DNA of 64,000 nt from Alphaproteobacteria bacterium (GTDB lineage: Bacteria; Pseudomonadota; Alphaproteobacteria; JANQMY01): the NCBI GenBank assembly GCA_028289425.1, contig JANQPL010000009.1:324961-388960 (forward strand), given 5' to 3'. A model generated the notes under the pieces. That model saw nothing but the letters and a program-made list of their open reading frames with translations. It was not told the DNA's origin and did no database searches. Every line of letters starts with the position of its first letter. The first letter of the stretch is position 1. Shown piece by piece: positions 35,082 to 61,070 of this stretch. Both the position numbers and the translations under genes were made by a program.

Positions 35082-35205
35082 CCGCCGTCATTGCGAGAGG
35101 CGGCGAAGCTTTGGCTTCGCGCAGGCAGGTCGCTCCGCTCCTCGCGATGACGCCCTATGGTCTTCTGCACACAAAAACAGAAACTTCATTCACGGGAGGA
35201 AACCC

Positions 35206-51919: not shown

Positions 51920-52438
51920 CTACTCCGTCAGGGCCTTTATGACCGCGTCGACCGTATCGCCGGCCTTGGCACGCATTTCATCGTCGGTAGCATCCTGAAT
52001 GGGATGTTCGACGAAGACACATCGGGCATCTTTCATACCCAATGCCGTTGCTTGCGTATCCGCCGCGTCAACAAATTCCGTGGACGCGATGGAAACTGAG
52101 GGAACCCCCTGAATTTCGAACCAAACCGTGTCATGCAAACTGCATGTCGTGCAGGATCCTCAATCGGCCAGGGCTTCGATAACGAAGTCGCACTCCCTTT
52201 TGATGTCGTGACGGAGATCGTCCGGGCACGGCTTTGTAAACGTGGGCTTGGCGAACCGTTTCACTTCAATGCCCGGCAGCTTTTCCTTGAGCATGCCTTC
52301 GAGCGCATCGAGATAGACGTCGCCGCGGGGCTTGCGGATGTCCATCAAGCCCACCACGCCGGAGATCGCTCCGCTGCGTGGCGTGACCTGCCGGGTCACC
52401 GGCACCGCTTCATTTGTCGGGTCAAGGATGGTGGTCAT
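51920..52438 (-). CDS. UGSC-family (seleno)protein, with in-frame TGA at 52160-52162
   Basis: ORFs 52160-52456 and 51920-52138 are in frame and are joined by the readthrough EALAD-U-G-S-C-TTCSL. I recall UGSC as a named (seleno)protein family. A hairpin (CUGCA-CGACA-UGCAG) lies 5 nt downstream. Confidence 0.6.
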
Positions 52439-52637
52439 CCTTTTTTCCTTTCTCAATTTCGAATGACTCTATATTGCCAGGGAGCACGCTGGGCGCCAAG
52501 ATCATATTTGGTCGCGCCTGCCTGCGCGAAGCCGGAGCTTCGCCCTGCGGGCCAAAGCCCTTCGGGCGACGGGTCGTTCGGCGAAGGCAGGCGATCGGGC
52601 GAAAAACCACGTACACTTTTCCTGATCGCGCTCCGAC

Positions 52638-54224
52638 TCAATCGCCGATTTTGCGCGAGACCGAAATGGAGCCCATCTCGCCGGTCGCCCAGCCGTGAAA
52701 CGCCCCTGAAAACTTGCCCGCATCGGACCCGGCCACGACGATGTGGATATAGACTTCGCTCAAGAACTTGGGCACCAACGAGTCAAGTTGTTCCGCCGTC
52801 ATATTGGCCGCCGCCTCCGGCTTGAGGCCGGCGCCGGAAATGTCATTGCCGACCATGTCGCGCAGCGGCCGCTTAGTCACTTCTTGGATACGTTCCCGCA
52901 AGCGCTTTTTGGAGTAATCGCCGTCCACCATCAGTGTGTCCACATGTTCCGGACACACCACCAGCAGCGTATCGATGGGCCAGCCGTGATATTTGGGATG
53001 AAAAACGCTTTCTAACCCCAGGCCCAATGTGCCCGCCATCTGATCGGGCTTGCGCGATTCCTGATCGACAATCAACGTCGGTCCGCTGGTCATGGCAAAG
53101 ATCGTGACCACGTTTTCGTCTTTTTTGAAGCCGCGCTCCACATGGAGCGGCTCCCATGGGTTGCGTTCTTCCCATTCGGCAAAGCACATGGTGAATTTCA
53201 TGGGATTGCCCAGGGTGGAGCGGTCCGTGCCGCCCGGTTTGGCGCCGCCTACATTGCGCACTACCAGGCGCAAGGCCCGGCCGATCGTTGCATTCGCGCG
53301 GCTGCCGTTCCCCAGCGCACCCAGCTTCATGTTCATATCGAGCTTGTGGCGGATGGGCCCGTTGATGATCATCACCGGCGCAGCCCCCATAGTGGTGGCG
53401 TTCACCCCATGAATATTGAATTCGTCCGTACACACAGCCTCCACGGCGGCGATTATGACGGGCATGTATTCGGGCTTACAGCCTGCCATGACGGCGTTGA
53501 TGGCGACTTTCTCAACGGTGACCTCACCCATATTGGGCGGCATGACGGCGATGACTTCCTGAGCGCCGCGTTTAGTGCCGTCGAGCATGCGCAACACCCG
53601 TTCCGGTGTGGGCGGAACCAGCGGCAGCCCGTCGGAGAAGCCTTGATCGAACATGAACTCGAACTCATCGTCCGCTTCGGCGATCTCGATCTTCCGGGCA
53701 CGGATGGGGCTATTATCGGCCTCGGCGCGCAAGCGGTCCGCCACCATAGGATCGACGGATTTTGAACCGCATCCCGGCCGCCATTCGGGCAGGTCGCCCC
53801 AAGCGATGCCGGCATCGTCGGCGCTGAGCACGCCCGCAATTTCTTTCTCAAGCGCTTCCCATTCCTCGCGCGCGAAACCGATCACCTTAGTGCCCGCGGT
53901 GCCATCGCCGCCCGCCCAGATGACGGTGGGCACGGTGTCAATCTCATTGTCGAAGGAAACTTTGCACCCCGATTCATCGAGGATGGGCACAGCCAGCTCA
54001 TGACGCTCTGAGAGAACAGCATTGCCTTCTTTGGTTTGGCCCAGCACCAGAATGTCGGCTTTGTCGCCCCAAGCGCGATGAAACCCGTCGAGCACCGGCA
54101 TCACCAGATTGCAGGTCGGACAGTCTTCCTTGACGAAACAGACAAGGGCCGGACGGCCGGTGGGGAAACGATGCGGCTTTCCCGCTGCATCGTTCAAGGC
54201 AAATGCATTTAGCGTTTCGGACAT
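52638..54224 (-). CDS. uncharacterized 528-aa protein: N-terminal thioredoxin-fold domain (CPTC) fused to a large domain of unknown function
   Basis: The VCFVKEDCPTCNLV CxxC motif sits in the first ~150 aa. I do not recognise the C-terminal ~370 aa. It lies inside the selenoprotein operon. Confidence 0.5.
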   Translation of the reverse strand: MSETLNAFALNDAAGKPHRFPTGRPALVCFVKEDCPTCNLVMPVLDGFHRAWGDKADILVLGQTKEGNAVLSERHELAVPILDESGCKVSFDNEIDTVPTVIWAGGDGTAGTKVIGFAREEWEALEKEIAGVLSADDAGIAWGDLPEWRPGCGSKSVDPMVADRLRAEADNSPIRARKIEIAEADDEFEFMFDQGFSDGLPLVPPTPERVLRMLDGTKRGAQEVIAVMPPNMGEVTVEKVAINAVMAGCKPEYMPVIIAAVEAVCTDEFNIHGVNATTMGAAPVMIINGPIRHKLDMNMKLGALGNGSRANATIGRALRLVVRNVGGAKPGGTDRSTLGNPMKFTMCFAEWEERNPWEPLHVERGFKKDENVVTIFAMTSGPTLIVDQESRKPDQMAGTLGLGLESVFHPKYHGWPIDTLLVVCPEHVDTLMVDGDYSKKRLRERIQEVTKRPLRDMVGNDISGAGLKPEAAANMTAEQLDSLVPKFLSEVYIHIVVAGSDAGKFSGAFHGWATGEMGSISVSRKIGD

Positions 54225-54228
54225 GTTT

Positions 54229-55428
54229 CTATTCGGTCGTCACCTTTTGGTTTCCCAGTGTGTGCACGGCGGAGGCGAACTCATTCAGTCCCAGGTCTTC
54301 CCGCATATCCGCCGTCACATCCGTAAAGTTGGGGTCGAGCGAAATGCCGATGCCGTCGGCAATGCGCACCATGCGTTCGAAATTGCCCACCACACCGGCT
54401 GCATCCACAAACTGCTCAGGGCTAACCGCCGCTAACAGATCAGTACGGGCTGCATCCAACGTCGCCTGATCGCCTTCAACAACGGCGTCGGCAAAGGCCG
54501 TTAGCTCCTTGCCCGCTGGGATCCGTTCGTCCACGCTTTCAGCGCCTTCAACAACACCCGTCAGTTCTACTTCTTCGCCGATCGATTGTGCGCTCACACG
54601 GAGCAGCATCGCATGAGCGGTCGTTCAATAGAAACAGTCGTTAAGTGCGGACACCCTCCCTGCAAGCAGTTCGATTTGAGGGCGCGACAGGTTTCGGCCT
54701 TCGTTGACCGCGCCGAATTTGCCGGCGGGAATGTATTGCACATCGCTTAAGGCGAACCAGTCACGCACGGCATCGGGCACCAAACTCAAGGCACGGGCCA
54801 CATTGGGAATGGTCTTGGCAAAATCCGCGCCCCATAGATCCTCGTCCGGCGCATGGGGTTGTTCCCGCGCCAGCATGGGGACATAGGCCTCGCCATCGAC
54901 CAAGGGGGCCGGCCGCGCTCCCGTCGGCTCTCCAGCGACGGGGCTCGGCAAAGCGTGCACCGGAACACCCAGGCCGCGGCAGGTTTGGTCCATGCTGCGG
55001 ATGGCAACCACGATTCCAAGCGCCTCCACATAATGACCATCCGAGAAACCTGCGTTCGCCAGATCTTCAATCGCTTTTTGGGTAATGCGGGTGACGTCCG
55101 TGACCATCATATGCACCATGGCGATGATGGGCTCCGTCAACACACCTTCCGTCATCGGATCAATGGTATGTTTGCCTTCGATGGTATAGGGGCTGAGTGC
55201 CTTTTTCCGCTCTACGCAAAACGGACATGTGATGGCTGCCCGCGCTTCTGCCGCAATACAAATGCGCTCAGCGCCGGTCCACCACGCGCCTGGCCGCGCG
55301 AGGCGGGACAGAACAACCGCATGGGCGTTCGCCATATCTTCCCGCACCGGCACTTTGCATGTCGCAAAGTCATTCGTGACATTGGCCAGTATGCCGGGGT
55401 CCCGTTGATCGTCGGTGATTTGTGGCAT
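54229..55428 (-). CDS. candidate tandem CMD/AhpD-like selenoprotein, with in-frame TGA at 54625-54627
   Basis: ORFs 54625-55428 and 54229-54609 are in frame. The readthrough is RVSALNDCFY-U-TTAH, i.e. the CMD core signature RVSxxNxCxxCxxxH with Sec at the second Cys. The first domain has TCPFC. Confidence 0.55.
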
Positions 55429-55452: not shown

Positions 55453-56241
55453 TTATTTGAGTGCTTTTTTGACAGCCTTGAGAACACGCTGCCCGTCGGA
55501 CCTTACTCTATAGTCACTCGATTGATCGATCCAGCGGATCGTGCCCGACGCATCGGTCAGGATGGTCGTGGGAATGGCCAGTGCTCGGCGCATCCCCCGG
55601 CTGTCGCGCGGATCGCCTGCCATGGCGTTGGGGTGCTCCACCCCGTAGGCCTTGATAACCTCCAGATCCGGATCGGCCAGTTGCAGCATGGAGAGCCCAT
55701 GTTTGCTGCGCATCGCGTCCGCCTGCTCGACCGTATTGGGGCTGATGGCGACCATTTTCACGCCCAGCGCGTCGAAATCATCTTGCAAGTCTTCCCATCG
55801 CTGCAACTCAGCGACACAGTAAGGTCACCAATGGCCCCGATAGAATTTGAGAAGCAGCGGGTCATTTTGCCCAGGCTCATATGCAAAAGTGCCCCCATCC
55901 CAATCGGCGGCAGCAAAGGCCGGAGCCGGCGCGCCCACTTTCACACCGACGCCCTTCGGCACCCCACCTTGAGAGAAGAGATAAAGGACAAAGCCGCCAA
56001 GGAGCACAGTGATGGCGGCAAGCGTGCCGCCGACCCAGCCCGGACCGAGAATGAGTGTCCAAACGGCCAACAGAAAACCTGTCAAAACCGACAGCTCGCT
56101 CAGAATGGGCCGCCGCGTGAACCCCTTCTTCAGAACAAGGATACGCCGAAAATAAAGCGCCATCCGCCCGATGACCAGCAGCATGGCCAGCGCAAGGGTG
56201 ACGTAGGGATTCCAGAGAAGTGAGAGAATTTGATCCGCCAT
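55453..56241 (-). CDS. candidate membrane-anchored redoxin selenoprotein (W-U-P-Y-C), with in-frame TGA at 55825-55827
   Basis: Three N-terminal transmembrane helices are followed by LKFYRGHW-U-PYCVAELQ, paralogous to the 45914 site. A GUCGCUG-AGUUG-CAGCGAU hairpin lies 9 nt after the UGA. It is directly downstream of selC. Confidence 0.55.
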
Positions 56242-56407: not shown

Positions 56408-56501
56408 TGGCGGAGGCGGATGGGAATCGAACCCACCACACGCATGGCTGCGTGTCACTGGTTTTGAAGACCAGGGAAGCCACCAGACTCCATTCGCCTC
56501 C
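56408..56501 (-). tRNA. selC: tRNA-Sec (selC), anticodon UCA
   Basis: The reverse complement reads GGAGGCGAAUGG ... CCUGGU-CUUCAAA-ACCAG ... GGUUCGAUUCC ... CCGCCUCCGCCA. It is ~94 nt with a long extra arm, an anticodon loop with UCA at positions 34-36, and an encoded CCA. Confidence 0.75.
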
Positions 56502-56584: not shown

Positions 56585-57649
56585 ATGGCGGACAAAGATA
56601 AGGTCCGGCTGACGCAGTACGCTGTGTCTGCTGGTTGAGCCGGTAAGCTCGGACCTGGGCAGTTGTCGCAAGTTTTGCGACCGTTGAAAGATATATTTCC
56701 GCAGGCGGATTTTCCCGATGTGCTGAGGGGGCTCAGCTCACCGGACGATGCCGCTGTGCTGAAACTGACCGACGAGTTGTCGATGGTAGCAACGGCGGAC
56801 TTCTTCGCGCCGGTGGTGGATGACCCCTACCAGTTCGGCGCCATCGCCGCCGCCAACGCCCTGTCTGATGTTTACGCAATGGGCGCCGAGCCAAAGCTCG
56901 CGCTTAATCTCGCAGGCTTTCCGAAAACACTGGACCTGGACATTCTGAACGAGATCTTCCGCGGCGGCGCCGACAAGGTGCGCGAGGCGGGCGCCGCCAT
57001 TGCCGGCGGTCACACCACCTTCGACGAAGAACCCAAATACGGCCTGGCGGTAATGGGTGTGCTGAACAAAGCGACCGCTTTCGCCAATGAAGGGGCCAAG
57101 CCCGGCGATCAGTTGATCCTCACCAAACCCATCGGTACGGGGATCATCACCACCGCCCTTAAACAAAGTAAGATCGACGAAAGCGACACCGAAGAAGCCG
57201 TCGCCAGCATGGCGCGCTTGAGCGCAGGCGCGGCGAAGATTTTGCGTGCCGCTCCCGCCGGCGCTGTCCATGCGGTCACCGACATTACCGGCTTCTCATT
57301 GGCGGGCCATGGGCATGAGATGGCGGATCAGTCGGGCGTTGCATTGGAGATTGCGTTTTCGAAGATCCCGCTGCTTGCCGGCACGGACGGCTTGGCCGCG
57401 CAAGGCGTCGCCCCCGGCGGCGCCGGACGGAACAAGGACTATTTCGGCCAATGGTTCGAGCGGGGGCCAAGCATCACCGACGCCCAAGAAACCATCGTCT
57501 TCGACCCGCAAACTTCCGGCGGCTTGCTGGTGGCCGTCGCGCCGCAAGCGCTTGAAAGTCTGATGGCCGATTTTTCCGAAGCAAGCGAGCCGGTTTGGCA
57601 TATCGGCAAGGTCACTGACGGTCCCAATGGCACCATTCACCTTGTTTAA
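56585..57649 (+). CDS. selD: selenide, water dikinase (selenophosphate synthetase), Sec-containing form with UGA at 56636-56638
   Basis: ATG 56585 is followed by KDKVRLTQYAVSAG-U-AGK, aligning with E. coli RLTQYSHGAGCGCK (Cys17). The downstream sequence is collinear with SelD (DFFAPVVDDPYQFG ... GGHT). Confidence 0.8.
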
Positions 57650-57707
57650 GGTGAAAGCTTTTCAGGCCGCTACCTGACGCGCTATCCTTCTTTAAACAGA
57701 AACTTGT

Positions 57708-57779
57708 CCGCCCCGCTCCCCCTTCCCAACCACCCCAAGGGTAACCTTATCGGGTGGTTGGGAAGGGGGAGCGGGGCGG
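57708..57779. repeat. long perfect palindromic element (28-bp stem), copy 2, in the selD-selA spacer
   Basis: CCGCCCCGCTCCCCCTTCCCAACCACCC-CAAGGGTAACCTTATC-GGGTGGTTGGGAAGGGGGAGCGGGGCGG. Confidence 0.6.
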
Positions 57780-57795
57780 TGAGGTCATACAAACA

Positions 57796-59184
57796 ATGGA
57801 CTCGAGCCTTTTTCGCAAAATCCCTCAGGTGAATGACCTGGCATTGAAACCGCACATCGCGCTGCTGGAAGGCGCGTGGAGCCGCGACGAGATGGTCGAT
57901 GCGCTACGCGCAGCACTCGATGAGGTGCGCGAGGGTCTGCGCAAGGGCACTGCCCTGCCCGATTTCGATAGCCCCGCCTTTGCCGCGCATATCGAAGCAC
58001 TCATGGCCGCCACAAGACAGCCCAGCCTGCGCCGCATCATCAATGCCACGGGCATCGTCATCCATACCAATTTGGGGCGCTCGCCCTTAGCACCGGCCGC
58101 CCTGGAAGCGATCCAAGAAACCGCTGCCGGTTACACAAACATCGAAATGACACTTGCGACGGGCCAGCGCGGCTCGCGCTACGATCATGTACGCGATTTG
58201 ATCTGTGAGCTGACAGGTGCGGAAGATGCAATTATGGTCAATAATTGCGCCGCCGCCGTTACCCTGGCGCTTGCTACCTTCGCCAAAGACAAAGAGGTCG
58301 TGGTCTCCCGCGGCGAACTGATCGAAATCGGCGGATCGTTCCGCATCCCGGATATCGTCGCCCAAAACGGCGCCACATTGCGCGAGGTGGGCACCACCAA
58401 CAAGACCCATTTGTCGGATTATCAAAACGCCATTACCGACGGCACAGCCGTTCTGCTGAAAACGCACACAAGTAACTACCGTATCGTCGGTTTCACCGCG
58501 TGCCCCGAACGAACGGCGCTCGCGAAACTTGCCAATGAAAACCAGCTTGTTTTGCTGGAAGATTTGGGCAGCGGGACGTTGATCGACCTCACCGCCTATG
58601 GCATCGGCGACGAGCCCACCGTGCAGCATTGTATCGCCTCCGGCGTGCACTTGGTGACGTTTTCCGGCGACAAGCTGCTGGGCGGACCCCAATGTGGAAT
58701 CATGGCGGGTAAGAAGGAGCTTGTGGCCAAACTGCGCAAGAACCCGCTGCTGCGGGCCATGCGCATCGACAAGCTATCGCTGGCGGCGTTAGAAGCCACC
58801 TTGCGGCTTTACAAGACACCTTTCGAGCCCGAAGAAGATATCCCGACGCTTCGCATGCTGACGGCAACGCCCGAAGAGCTGGAAGAGACGGCGCAGGATC
58901 TTGCGGCGGCGCTCAACGCCCTCCCGGAAGTAACCGCAACGACAGCCCAAACTATGAGCGAAGCGGGTGGCGGCTCCCTGCCTGCCCACCAGTTAGCGTC
59001 GTATTGCGTGCGCCTCACTGTCGGCACATTGACGCCGGATGCGTTGATGGCACGTCTGCGCCAGGGGGGAACACCGATCATCGCACGCATCTCCAAAGGC
59101 GACGTGATCTTGGATGTGCGCACGCTTTTGCCCGATGATGTATCGGATCTGCCGGGCCTGATCGGCGCCCTAGAGAGCACATGA
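57796..59184 (+). CDS. selA: L-seryl-tRNA(Sec) selenium transferase
   Basis: Collinear with E. coli SelA as I recall it ([44 protein letters not shown]). It carries the PLP-lysine region. Confidence 0.85.
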
Positions 59185-61070
59185 CCGAACAACTTTCTCT
59201 CGGCGTGATCGGCCATGTGGACCATGGCAAGACCACGTTGGTCAAAGCGCTCACCGGCATGGAAACCGACCGGCTGAAAGAAGAAAAGCTGCGCGGGCTT
59301 TCTATTGTGCTTGGGTTTGCCTACCTCGAAACCGAACGCGGCCTTATCGACTTTATCGACACACCCGGCCATGCGGATTTCGTCCGTACCATGATTTCCG
59401 GGGTGAGCGGCATCGACGCGGCACTCATCGTCATTTCCGCCAACGAGAAAATCATGCCGCAAACGGTGGAACACATTCGCATTGTGTCTCTGCTGGGTAT
59501 CGACCAGGCGGTGGTGGCGCTCACCAAAACTGATTTAGCGACGGATGACGAGATCCGCGATGCCACCACAGAGATAGAGGCCTATCTTGCCGACACGGCA
59601 TTTTCCAACGTGACCATCGTACCGGTGAGTGCGCCGGCGAACCACGGGGTCGACGACTTGGTGGCCGCGCTCAACACGCTGTTCGACACCAAACCCAAAC
59701 GCGCCGATGTGGGTCATTTCTACTTGCCCTTCGACCGGGTGTTTAGCGTGAAAGGCTTCGGCACGGTCGGCACCGGCACCCTCAGCGCGGGGCCCGTCGC
59801 CGTCGGCGATGTGGCGGAAATCGCGCCGGACGGCCGCAAAGCGCGGGTGCGCAGCCTGGAAGTCCACGGGGGTTCTGTTGAGCGCGCCCTGCCCGGCCAA
59901 AGGGTCGCCGCCAATGTGCGCTTGGAAGGCACCGGCGAGATAGCGAGGGGCAACGCACTCACCTCGCCCGACTGGCTGCCCGCATCGGACTATTGGGATG
60001 GCACACTTCAACTGTTAAGCGACGCGCCGAAGGAACTCAAAAGCGGGGCAAAGCTTCGCATCCTGCATGGCACGACGGAAGACATTGCCACGATCCGCTT
60101 GCTCGACAGAGAGCGCCTCAAGCCTGGTGAAACGGGTCCCGTCCAGTTTCGATTGGCCCAACCCGCCGTGGCCTGGCATCAGGAACGGTTCATCGTGCGT
60201 TCGATCACGCCCGTTCAAACCATTGGCGGCGGTCAATTCACGGACACCCAGGCCAAACGGCGCGGGCGCAAAGACAGCGCGATCACGGCGCCGTCCGAAA
60301 AAGCGGATGCCCGCACGACGGCCCTGCTGTCCATCGTCAATAATGCCGGAACGGACGGTATTTCCCTTGCGGAGCTTGGGCAGCGGGTGGACTTGCCGGA
60401 AGACGATCTGCGCCAGCTCTGCCTTAAACACGAATGCTCTATCGAACAAAACGGGCTGGTCTATGCCAGTGGCGTTATCACCGCCACGATGGAAAAGATC
60501 GCGGCGCTGCTGGGCGAATTTCATGAGGCCAATCCGACCCGCATGGGACAGCAACAAAGCGAGTTGGCGTCACGCCTGGGCGTTCCGCAACGCTTGTTCC
60601 GCTTCGCTATGGCGCTGATGGCCGATACCAAACAATTGAACATAAGCCAAGGCATTGTGCGCCTGACCTCATTCGACCCATTCGCGCAGCTTAAACCTGA
60701 CGAGCGCAAAATATTGGAGGCACTGGAACAGCGTTTGATCGAACAAGGCATCACCGCGCCGACGCTCAAAGAGCTCACAGAAGAAAACCCCAAATTCAAA
60801 GACATCTCGCGGTTTTTAGTGGATACAAACCATGCCATCGCGGTTTTCGATGAAAAACGAAAGAACCTGTTCTTCTTCCATCACAGTGCCATTGATGGGG
60901 CCATTGAGGATTTGCGAAAGGCCTTTCCACCGCCGGCGGCCTTCACAGCCAGTCAAGCCCGCGAGGCGCTGGGCACCACCCGCAAATATGTCATGCCGTT
61001 GCTGGGCCATCTGGACAAACAAAAAATTACGCGGCGCAAGGACGACATGCGCACGCTAGCAGTCCAATAA
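59181..61070 (+). CDS. selB: selenocysteine-specific elongation factor
   Basis: GTPase motifs GHVDHGKTT and DTPGH are followed by the C-terminal winged-helix extension. A 4-nt overlap with selA suggests translational coupling. Confidence 0.85.

What the first reader, a model, noticed from the sequence alone, without database searches (positions are those of the whole stretch)
51920..52438. UGSC-family protein with Sec: the motif U-G-S-C created by in-frame TGA
Translating through the TGA that joins ORFs 52160-52456 and 51920-52138 gives ...EALAD-U-G-S-C-TTCSL... I recall UGSC as a named (seleno)protein family whose function is unknown. Here it is the terminal gene of the selenoprotein operon and is preceded by a structured 180-nt spacer rich in GCGAAG/CTTCGC hairpins.
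Basis: partly seen in the sequence, partly recalled or inferred. Interest (0 to 1): 0.6.

Follow-up and report, generated by a model that had tools for sequence, protein, structure and literature searches.

The report
UGSC selenoprotein gene, correctly identified
The in-frame TGA really does encode selenocysteine in a member of the known but uncharacterised UGSC selenoprotein family; the most useful new point is that this small protein almost always sits next to, and is sometimes fused to, one large partner protein of unknown function.

Summary
The observation and the interpretation both hold. Window 52438..51920 (- strand) is one 172-codon gene with an in-frame TGA at 52162..52160. Read through, it matches NCBIfam NF041046 (169.5 bits, cutoff 125) and Pfam PF24696 end to end, with U-G-S-C at the family's motif position. 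All 80 closest genomic homologs, from several bacterial phyla, carry TGA at that codon. Rare Cys forms read CGSC. A conserved hairpin follows the TGA and places G23/U24 in its loop, as in E. coli fdhF. Synonymous sites inside it are frozen. tRNA-Sec, selD, selA and selB lie in the same window.

The family has been known since 2007-2008 and its function is unknown, so this is a new member of a known kind.

Three points go beyond the finding:
- The conserved unit is a gene pair. A 528-aa protein (TlpA-like thioredoxin domain plus a ~350-aa domain with no Pfam or PDB match) lies directly upstream in 74 of 80 loci, and natural fusions exist.
- The predicted fold is flavodoxin-like, not thioredoxin-like. 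Sec caps a helix bearing U-x-x-C-x-x-C.
- The 199-nt spacer is a lineage-specific insertion rich in palindromes, not a conserved regulatory structure.

The likely role is the redox-active selenol subunit of a two-protein oxidoreductase. This is an inference.

The parts
51920..52438 (-). UGSC family selenoprotein gene, 172 codons plus stop. Motif A-L-A-D-U93-G-S-C96-T-T-C99-S-L-H-D.
   Evidence: sequence. NF041046, 169.5 bits against cutoff 125. PF24696, 162.8 bits, profile positions 1-171 of 172.
52160..52162 (-). In-frame TGA, codon 93, read as selenocysteine.
   Evidence: The same codon is TGA in 80 of 80 homologous loci. It is TGT in the Cys forms L081 and L083.
52118..52159 (-). SECIS-like hairpin directly after the TGA. 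The apical element is at 52132-52146: a 6-bp stem CAUGCA/UGCAUG with loop G23-U24-U25, counting the U of UGA as 1.
   Evidence: folds; the upper stem is paired in 74 of 74 distinct sequences; pair 18-30 is GC in 40, GU in 31, AU in 3, with no mismatch; frozen synonymous sites; the fdhF comparison sequence was verified.
52439..52637 (.). 199-nt spacer between the partner gene and UGSC. It holds nested inverted repeats (arms 52515-52527 / 52581-52593 and 52540-52552 / 52557-52569). It is probably an inserted REP-like intergenic element.
   Evidence: repeats. (z = -1.0); a 28-nt core recurs in the intergenic region at 35102-35129; the gap in homologous loci has a median of 28.5 nt.
52638..54224 (-). 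Conserved partner gene, 528 aa. It has an N-terminal TlpA/ResA-like thioredoxin domain (C35-P-T-C38), a conserved P-G-C152-G-S linker, and a ~350-aa C-terminal domain with no Pfam, NCBIfam or PDB sequence match. C249 and C347 are kept in distant relatives.
   Evidence: synteny in 74 of 80 loci; fusions to UGSC.
54229..55428 (-). AhpD-related CFYUT (seleno)protein with an in-frame TGA at 54625-54627. This neighbour is specific to this window.
   Evidence: NF041238, 422 bits against cutoff 175, aligned across the TGA. (sequence).
55453..56241 (-). AhpC/TSA-type redoxin with a hydrophobic, probably membrane-spanning N-terminal segment (judged by eye from the sequence). In-frame TGA at 55825-55827, motif W-U-P-Y-C.
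   Evidence: PF00578, 88.8 bits, spanning the TGA.
56408..56501 (-). tRNA-Sec (anticodon UCA) at the head of the same-strand gene run.
   Evidence: ARAGORN. Rfam RF01852, 83.2 bits.
56585..61070 (+). Divergent selD (itself Sec-containing, TGA at 56636-56638), selA (57754-59184) and selB (59181-61070).
   Evidence: TIGR00476 368.5 bits, TIGR00474 580.9 bits, TIGR00475 299.8 bits.

Best explanation
The locus encodes a 172-residue UGSC-family selenoprotein.

Decoding. The TGA at 52162..52160 is decoded as selenocysteine. SelB and tRNA-Sec are recruited by a hairpin that starts right after the codon.

Structure. The protein is predicted to be a small flavodoxin-like alpha/beta domain. Sec93 sits at the N-terminal cap of the third helix, followed one turn apart each by Cys96 and Cys99 (U-x-x-C-x-x-C).

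Proposed function. It most likely works as the redox-active selenol subunit of a conserved two-protein cytoplasmic oxidoreductase. Its partner is the 528-aa protein encoded just upstream. In this model:
- Sec93 is the attacking or redox centre.
- Sec93 forms a selenenylsulfide with Cys96.
- That bond is resolved through Cys99 and then through the partner's CPTC thioredoxin domain, or through free thioredoxin in lineages whose partner lacks that domain.
- The partner's ~350-aa domain, with two universally kept cysteines, holds the unknown substrate.

Shown: gene identity, the recoding signals, the synteny, the fusions and the fold prediction.

Inferred: complex formation, the selenenylsulfide relay, the direction of electron flow and the existence of a specific substrate.
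For: Identity:
- Full-length matches above the curated cutoffs.
- 80 of 80 homologs have TGA at the same codon.
- Cys forms read CGSC.

Recoding:
- tRNA-Sec, selD, selA and selB are in the window.
- The hairpin's upper stem is paired in 74 of 74 distinct sequences. Pair 18-30 varies GC/GU/AU and is never mismatched.
- Synonymous sites inside the stem-loop are frozen: Cys99 is TGC in 74 of 74 and Ser is AGT in 74 of 74. Nearby sites vary freely: Cys96 is TGC in 34 and TGT in 40, and Ser95 uses four TCN codons.
- G23 and U24 lie at the same distance from UGA as in the verified E. coli fdhF element.
- A diverged Cys form (L081) has lost the hairpin but keeps the peptide motif.

Partnership:
- The 528-aa gene is directly upstream on the same strand in 74 of 80 loci across phyla. 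The median gap is 28.5 nt, and stop and start often overlap.
- Both Cys forms have the partner overlapping by 4 nt.
- Six gene products that were scanned carry the partner domain fused to UGSC. Four of those gene calls (P0266, P0341, P0302, P0286) end at profile position 92, that is, at the Sec codon. For P0266 the UGSC C-terminal half follows as the next gene call.

Fold:
- AlphaFold2 model of the 57%-identical Cys homolog P0005: pLDDT 90.3, strictly alternating (beta-alpha)x5, with the Sec position immediately before helix 96-111.
Against: - No experiment and no characterised homolog exists.
- Foldseek hits to solved structures are weak and generic (TM <= 0.51).
- The partner's C-terminal domain has no match in Pfam, NCBIfam or PDB sequences. 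Its model is only moderate (pLDDT 76.5, with conserved loops below 50). The catalytic role assigned to it is therefore a guess.
- The model is of a homolog, not of the window protein itself.
- Neighbouring genes differ between lineages: antioxidant selenoproteins here, and an RraA-like gene with catabolic genes in Pseudomonadales. Context therefore does not fix a substrate.
- U-x-x-C-x-x-C could also serve metal, sulfur or selenium binding.
Confidence: 0.6

Rival explanations
1. UGSC is a stand-alone thioredoxin-like antioxidant protein. It works with the peroxiredoxin-like and AhpD-like selenoproteins of this operon in peroxide detoxification. This is the reading suggested by the operon here and by the literature's 'likely Trx-like fold'.
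For: It is co-oriented with an AhpC/TSA-type and an AhpD-related selenoprotein. It carries a UxxC redox motif. Zhang and Gladyshev 2008 suggested a Trx-like fold (PMC2398784).
Against: The Prx-like and AhpD-like neighbours are almost absent from the other 80 loci: Prx-like appears in 2 of 80 and the AhpD-like gene in none. The 528-aa partner is present in 74 of 80. The predicted fold is (beta-alpha)x5, and the best structural matches are flavodoxin, lumazine synthase and CheY, not thioredoxin.
Confidence: 0.15
2. The U-x-x-C-x-x-C(-x-x-H) segment is a binding site rather than a redox relay. It would bind a metal or an Fe-S-type cluster, or carry a persulfide or perselenide. One example would be a selenium or sulfur carrier feeding the partner enzyme or SelD.
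For: Three chalcogen residues and an invariant His-Asp lie spaced three apart on one helix. The sel genes are adjacent in about 30% of loci. The partner has several conserved cysteines.
Against: Residues spaced i, i+3, i+6, i+9 on a helix do not face one point (geometric inference). Adjacency of sel genes to a genome's main selenoprotein gene is common and needs no special function (general knowledge). No metal-binding family was matched.
Confidence: 0.15
3. The TGA is a true stop. The locus would then be two short genes, or a pseudogene of a Cys-containing ancestor.
For: Automatic gene callers end the product at residue 92. The 92-aa fragment is on record for this very contig. One related locus (L082) does look degenerate, with GGA at this codon and a frameshifted partner gene.
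Against: TGA is kept in 80 of 80 loci across phyla, with a conserved downstream half in frame. A conserved SECIS-like hairpin shows synonymous-site constraint. A complete Sec machinery is adjacent.
Confidence: 0.02

Closest known systems
UGSC-containing / UGSC family (seleno)protein (NCBIfam NF041046, Pfam PF24696). Described in metagenomes and Hyphomonas neptunium by Zhang and Gladyshev in 2007-2008.
   Same: Full-length HMM match above the curated cutoffs. The U-G-S-C motif is at the family position. The Sec form predominates over the Cys form: 255 against 21 in GOS and 80 of 80 here. The hosts are aerobic aquatic bacteria.
   Different: Nothing that affects membership. This copy has an unusually long 199-nt gap from its partner gene. 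It is embedded in an island with two other selenoprotein genes and the whole Sec machinery.
'UGSC/Unknown_1' fusion noted in the GOS selenoproteome paper (PMC2398784, Fig. S1A)
   Same: Fusions of a ~350-aa domain without annotation to UGSC exist: P0266, P0341, P0302, P0286, P0333 and P0296. The same domain is the C-terminal part of the upstream 528-aa protein here.
   Different: Here the two are separate genes, and the partner carries an extra thioredoxin domain. I could not confirm that the paper's Unknown_1 is this same domain, because the figure is held only as an image.
E. coli fdhF bacterial SECIS element
   Same: A hairpin lies directly downstream of UGA. The 3' arm of the apical stem, U26-G27-C28-A29, is identical, and G23-U24 in the loop is at the same distance from UGA.
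   Different: The loop has 3 nt (G-U-N) rather than 4 nt. There is no bulged U17; an unpaired, invariant A16 precedes the upper stem. The register of the lower stem differs between clades. No Rfam family reports it.
Glycine / D-proline reductase selenoproteins (GrdA, GrdB, PrdB)
   Same: The resemblance is in working logic only: a small or UxxC-type selenoprotein acts with a larger partner protein and thioredoxin-type reductant. PrdB is listed with a UxxC motif.
   Different: No sequence similarity was detected. No Pfam or NCBIfam hit other than UGSC appeared at E <= 1. The hosts are aerobes, not Stickland fermenters. This is an analogy, not membership.

Membership tests
UGSC family (seleno)protein (NF041046 / PF24696) | Profile HMM score above the curated cutoff over the whole length | tested here: met
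   NF041046: 169.5 bits against cutoff 125, profile positions 4-147 of 147. PF24696: 162.8 bits against cutoff 25, profile positions 1-171 of 172.
UGSC family (seleno)protein (NF041046 / PF24696) | U(or C)-G-S-C motif at the conserved position, with TGA or a Cys codon in homologs at the same column | tested here: met
   The window reads ALAD-TGA-GSC. TGA is present in 80 of 80 loci. TGT is used in the Cys forms L081 and L083.
UGSC family (seleno)protein (NF041046 / PF24696) | Selenocysteine actually incorporated in the protein | not testable with these tools
   This needs 75Se labelling or mass spectrometry. Indirect support comes from the SECIS-like hairpin and from tRNA-Sec, selA, selB and selD in the window.
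Bacterial SECIS (fdhF type) | Stem-loop directly downstream of UGA, with G and U in the apical loop at positions 23 and 24 from the U of UGA | tested here: met
   Upper stem at columns 17-22 / 26-31, loop G23-U24-N25, paired in 74 of 74 distinct sequences. The fdhF sequence used for comparison was verified.
Bacterial SECIS (fdhF type) | Bulged U17 below the apical stem | tested here: not met
   Column 17 is a paired C. An invariant unpaired A16 takes the place below the stem.
Bacterial SECIS (fdhF type) | Binding of SelB | not testable with these tools
   This needs a binding assay or a read-through reporter.
Thioredoxin-fold oxidoreductases (suggested for UGSC in the literature) | Thioredoxin fold with the redox motif after strand 1 | tested here: not met
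   The AlphaFold2 model of the Cys homolog P0005 (pLDDT 90.3) is (beta-alpha)x5 with the motif after strand 3. The top 50 Foldseek PDB hits include flavodoxin, lumazine synthase, CheY-like and corrinoid-binding domains, and no thioredoxin. This rests on a prediction for a 57%-identical homolog.
Glycine / proline reductase selenoproteins (GrdA, GrdB, PrdB) | Sequence homology to the GRDA or GRDB families | tested here: not met
   UGSC was the only family hit at E <= 1 in Pfam and NCBIfam. A profile search of PDB sequences gave no hit at E <= 10.
TlpA/ResA-like thiol-disulfide oxidoreductases (partner protein, N-terminal domain only) | Thioredoxin fold with a CxxC motif | tested here: met
   Profile hits to StoA and ResA at E down to 6.9e-8 over residues 3-136. 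Foldseek TM 0.75-0.85 to ResA and DsbE. CPTC lies at residues 35-38. No signal peptide or membrane anchor is evident in the N-terminus (read by eye from the sequence), unlike typical TlpA or ResA.

The most novel reading that the evidence does not exclude
UGSC and its partner form a previously undescribed two-component selenoenzyme that is widespread in aerobic aquatic bacteria. A flavodoxin-like selenoprotein with a Sec-Cys-Cys relay would dock through its conserved, unstructured N-terminal tail onto a ~350-aa catalytic domain of a new family (5238 representative clusters, no Pfam model). Electrons would be supplied by a fused or a free thioredoxin. In logic this would be an aerobic counterpart of the selenoprotein A/B reductases of anaerobes, acting on a still unknown small-molecule or protein substrate.
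Probability: 0.35. Interest if true: 0.65.

Novelty: new member of a known kind. Interest (0 to 1): 0.33.

Why it matters
[quoted passage not shown] In many of the loci examined the sel genes sit right next to it, which suggests, though I did not test this, that it is a main client of the Sec machinery there. Its function has nevertheless been unknown since about 2007.

For this window, the result means the gene should be annotated as one 172-residue selenoprotein rather than a 92-residue fragment.

More generally, the tight pairing and the natural fusion with one partner protein give a concrete handle for experiments: co-expression, pull-down and redox titration.

The predicted flavodoxin-like fold corrects the assumption that UGSC is another thioredoxin-fold protein.

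Tried and rejected
I used the natural Cys homolog P0005 instead.

3. I first supposed that the 'full-length' database homologs with W, G or R at the Sec position were TGA translated under another genetic code. For P0001 this is wrong. The codon is really GGA, and the partner gene there is frameshifted, so that locus is decaying or misassembled. The others were not checked.

4. Apparent partner-UGSC fusions among the first protein hits (P0017, P0035, P0065), and long in-frame ORFs upstream of UGSC in GC-rich loci, are off-frame read-through and not real fusions. Real fusions were found only in the exhaustive representative search.

5. Single-sequence folding of the SECIS region and of the spacer is not better than shuffles. 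The SECIS case rests on the comparative data.

6. An unbiased neighbour clustering found no third gene conserved across all lineages.

7. Relaxed Pfam and PDB-sequence searches of the partner C-terminal domain found nothing credible.

8. The source organism could not be named. The closest genome locus is an Alphaproteobacteria MAG at 76% identity.

Full report
**1. What is in the sequence**

On the - strand an ATG at 52438, preceded by AAAGGA, opens a frame that runs to TAG at 51922..51920. The frame has a single in-frame TGA at 52162..52160, which is codon 93.

With Cys put in place of the stop, the 172-residue product gives two matches:
- NCBIfam NF041046 'UGSC family (seleno)protein': 169.5 bits against a curated cutoff of 125.
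- Pfam PF24696 'UGSC': 162.8 bits, residues 3-171 on profile positions 1-171 of 172.

No other family appears at E <= 1. One alignment covers both sides of the TGA, so the two ORFs are halves of one gene.

**2. Is the TGA read as selenocysteine?**

The machinery is in the window:
- tRNA-Sec lies at 56408-56501 on the same strand.
- selD (itself with a TGA at 56636-56638), selA and selB are divergently transcribed.

A scan of one genome per species found at least 597 species with a relative. The best 80 loci were kept. By record title they are mostly Alpha- and Gammaproteobacteria and Chloroflexota (Dehalococcoidia), with single Sulfopaludibacter and Binataceae MAGs. All 80 have TGA at the aligned codon and continue in frame.

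In the protein database most relatives are 94-110-residue products that stop at ...ALAD. These are gene calls truncated at the TGA. The 92-residue fragment of this very gene is on record in that form.

True Cys forms exist and read ALAD-C-GSC, encoded by TGT (P0005 and P0009).

**3. The recoding signal**

The 60 nt from the TGA onward align without gaps in 81 sequences, 74 of them distinct. A 6-bp stem (columns 17-22 with 26-31) closes a loop G23-U24-N25 and is paired in every sequence. Pair 18-30 is G-C in 40, G-U in 31 and A-U in 3, and is never mismatched. Both of its columns are synonymous third positions.

Synonymous sites give an internal control:

| Codon | Location relative to stem-loop | Usage in 74 distinct sequences |
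|---|---|---|
| Cys99 | inside | TGC 74 |
| the following Ser | inside | AGT 74 |
| the next codon | inside | always ends in G |
| Cys96 | just outside | TGC 34, TGT 40 |
| Ser95 | just outside | mainly the four TCN codons |
| Thr97 | just outside | all four ACN codons |

The lower stem pairs in different registers in Alpha- and Gammaproteobacteria. The gamma register shows more covariation than any of 500 shuffles.

The apical element UGCA-GUN-UGCA places G23 and U24 at the same distance from UGA as in the E. coli fdhF element. I verified that sequence against 5,419 E. coli genomes. That G23 and U24 are SelB contacts in fdhF is established knowledge, recalled rather than tested here. There is no bulged U17.

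A diverged Cys form (L081) keeps the peptide motif but has lost the hairpin. This is what one expects if the hairpin serves recoding.

Folding of the single window sequence is not better than shuffles, and Rfam reports nothing here. The case is comparative.

**4. Surroundings in the window**

The same-strand run is:
- tRNA-Sec.
- An AhpC/TSA-type redoxin with W-U-P-Y-C (55453-56241) and a hydrophobic N-terminal segment that looks membrane-spanning by eye.
- An AhpD-related CFYUT (seleno)protein (54229-55428; NF041238, 422 bits).
- A 528-aa protein (52638-54224).
- A 199-nt spacer.
- UGSC.

These assignments rest. A convergent SDR gene follows. 'Terminal gene of a selenoprotein operon' is therefore a fair description.

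**5. The spacer**

It is 199 nt long, with nested inverted repeats. Its predicted stability is ordinary (z = -1.0), and no terminator-like site lies in it on the coding strand.

In 74 homologous loci the gap between the upstream gene and UGSC has a median of 28.5 nt. It is often -4 to +3 nt, and only two loci exceed the window. A 28-nt core of the spacer recurs inside another palindromic intergenic stretch at 35102-35129.

The simplest reading is a dispersed REP-like insertion in an otherwise tight gene junction, not a regulatory feature of the family.

**6. The conserved unit is a gene pair**

The 528-aa protein has a homolog directly upstream, on the same strand, in 74 of 80 loci. In two of the six exceptions UGSC lies at the contig edge. 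The Prx-like neighbour appears in 2 loci and the AhpD-like one in none. selA and selB are adjacent in 23-24 loci.

Clustering of all ORFs found no further gene shared by all lineages. In one Pseudomonadales locus that I scanned (L038), an RraA-like gene overlaps the partner's start, and catabolic genes lie nearby. About nine loci share that upstream ORF.

Both Cys-form loci also have the partner gene overlapping UGSC by 4 nt.

The partner has three parts:
- A TlpA/ResA-like thioredoxin domain with CPTC. It shows no evident signal peptide or anchor (read by eye).
- A conserved P-G-C-G-S linker.
- A ~350-aa domain with no match in Pfam, NCBIfam or PDB sequences, even at E = 10.

An exhaustive search found 5238 representative clusters carrying that domain. 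It occurs alone (~350 aa), with the thioredoxin domain (~530 aa), in tandem (~710-740 aa), and fused to UGSC.

All six candidate fusions that were scanned contain the UGSC domain; one (P0296, 24.5 bits) falls just below Pfam's cutoff of 25. Four of the gene calls end at profile position 92, which is the Sec codon. On the P0266 contig the next call is the UGSC C-terminal half.

This probably corresponds to the 'UGSC/Unknown_1' fusion mentioned in 2008. I could not verify that, because the figure is held only as an image.

Across distant members of the partner domain, C249 and C347 (window numbering) are kept, while C265 and C424 are not.

**7. Fold**

An AlphaFold2 model of the Cys homolog P0005 is confident: pLDDT 90.3 and pTM 0.84. 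P0005 is 57% identical to the window protein. The model is strictly (beta-alpha)x5. The Sec position falls between strand 3 and a 16-residue helix, so that U, C+3 and C+6 lie at the cap and the first two turns.

Foldseek against the PDB returns only weak, generic three-layer alpha/beta matches: lumazine synthase, flavodoxin, CheY-like receivers and a corrinoid-binding domain, all with TM <= 0.51. No thioredoxin-fold protein appears among the 50 listed hits. A profile search of PDB sequences finds nothing.

The published guess of a Trx-like fold is therefore not supported by this model.

The first ~20 residues carry invariant D6, P7, T8, E10, R16 and R21 but have low confidence. In the fusions they form the link to the partner domain. 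I infer that they are a docking segment.

**8. Most likely mechanism**

The following are shown: the identity of the gene, the recoding signals, the partner synteny, the fusions and the fold prediction.

The rest is inferred. UGSC would be the selenol-bearing subunit of a cytoplasmic two-protein oxidoreductase, working as follows:
- Sec93 at the helix cap is the reactive centre.
- Cys96 forms a selenenylsulfide with it.
- Cys99 and then the partner's CPTC, or free thioredoxin where that domain is missing, pass the redox equivalents on.
- The partner's large domain supplies substrate binding.

This works like the selenoprotein A/B reductases in outline, but there is no sequence relationship to them. 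The substrate is unknown. The antioxidant neighbours here and the catabolic neighbours elsewhere point in different directions.

Rival readings are a stand-alone antioxidant thiol/selenol protein, a metal, sulfur or selenium carrier, and a true stop codon. They are weighed in the rivals section. The last is practically excluded.

**9. What is known**

The family was reported as the 'UGSC-containing protein' of unknown function in Hyphomonas neptunium and in metagenomes (PMC1976440). It ranks among the most abundant selenoproteins of the Global Ocean Sampling data, with 255 Sec forms against 21 Cys forms, and it is enriched in non-marine samples (PMC2398784). Reviews from 2022 and 2026 still list it as uncharacterised. 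Sec in this family is also known to be recoded to UAG in Geodermatophilaceae.

**10. Verdict**

The finding is correct and well localised, but it is a new member of a known family. Interest as found is modest.

The added value is threefold: the partner and fusion evidence, the fold that is not thioredoxin-like, and the demotion of the spacer. Together these make the long-open question of UGSC function more directly testable.

Noticed in passing
window 52638-54224 (-): This 528-aa protein is named in databases only for its thioredoxin domain ('TlpA family protein disulfide reductase'). Its ~350-aa C-terminal domain has no Pfam, NCBIfam or PDB sequence match, yet it has 5238 representative-cluster relatives in several architectures: alone, Trx-fused, tandem and UGSC-fused.
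   Followed up: partly
window 56585-57649 (+), TGA at 56636-56638: selD is itself a selenoprotein here (…AVSAG-U-AGKLGPG…). The listed ORF starts only after this TGA.
   Followed up: partly
window 55453-56241 (-) and 54229-55428 (-): There are two further selenoprotein genes with in-frame TGA. One is an AhpC/TSA redoxin with a hydrophobic N-terminal segment (W-U-P-Y-C, TGA at 55825-55827). The other is an AhpD-related CFYUT protein (TGA at 54625-54627). Hairpins can be drawn downstream of both TGAs, but they were not tested comparatively.
   Followed up: partly
window 35082-35205 and 52515-52593: Short palindromic intergenic elements share a core GCGAAGCTNNGGCTTCGCGCAGGCAGG. They are likely a dispersed REP-like repeat of this genome. 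Only two copies were seen in the 64 kb.
   Followed up: partly
L082:4479-6543: In one metagenomic contig the Sec codon is GGA (Gly), while the SECIS-like hairpin is intact and the partner gene is split by a frameshift. This is either a decaying locus or an assembly error. Other database 'full-length' homologs show W or R at this position and were not checked at the DNA level.
   Followed up: partly
L038:3677-6516 (about nine loci share the upstream ORF): In this Pseudomonadales locus an RraA-like aldolase/decarboxylase gene overlaps the start of the partner gene, giving a three-gene run RraA-like, partner, UGSC. Nearby genes encode CoA-transferase III, MFS transporter, TauD and PhyH dioxygenases and acyl-CoA dehydrogenase. 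This hints at a metabolic rather than an antioxidant role there.
   Followed up: partly
L036:6637-8820 (8 loci in that ORF cluster): A pyridine-nucleotide-disulfide oxidoreductase fused to SelD lies just downstream of UGSC. This is the Ndh-SelD fusion known from ocean metagenomes. In many Alphaproteobacteria selA and selB lie just upstream of the partner gene.
   Followed up: no
window 52133-52825 (+): A 230-aa ORF runs antisense across the UGSC start, the spacer and the end of the partner gene. It has no support and is taken as spurious.
   Followed up: no
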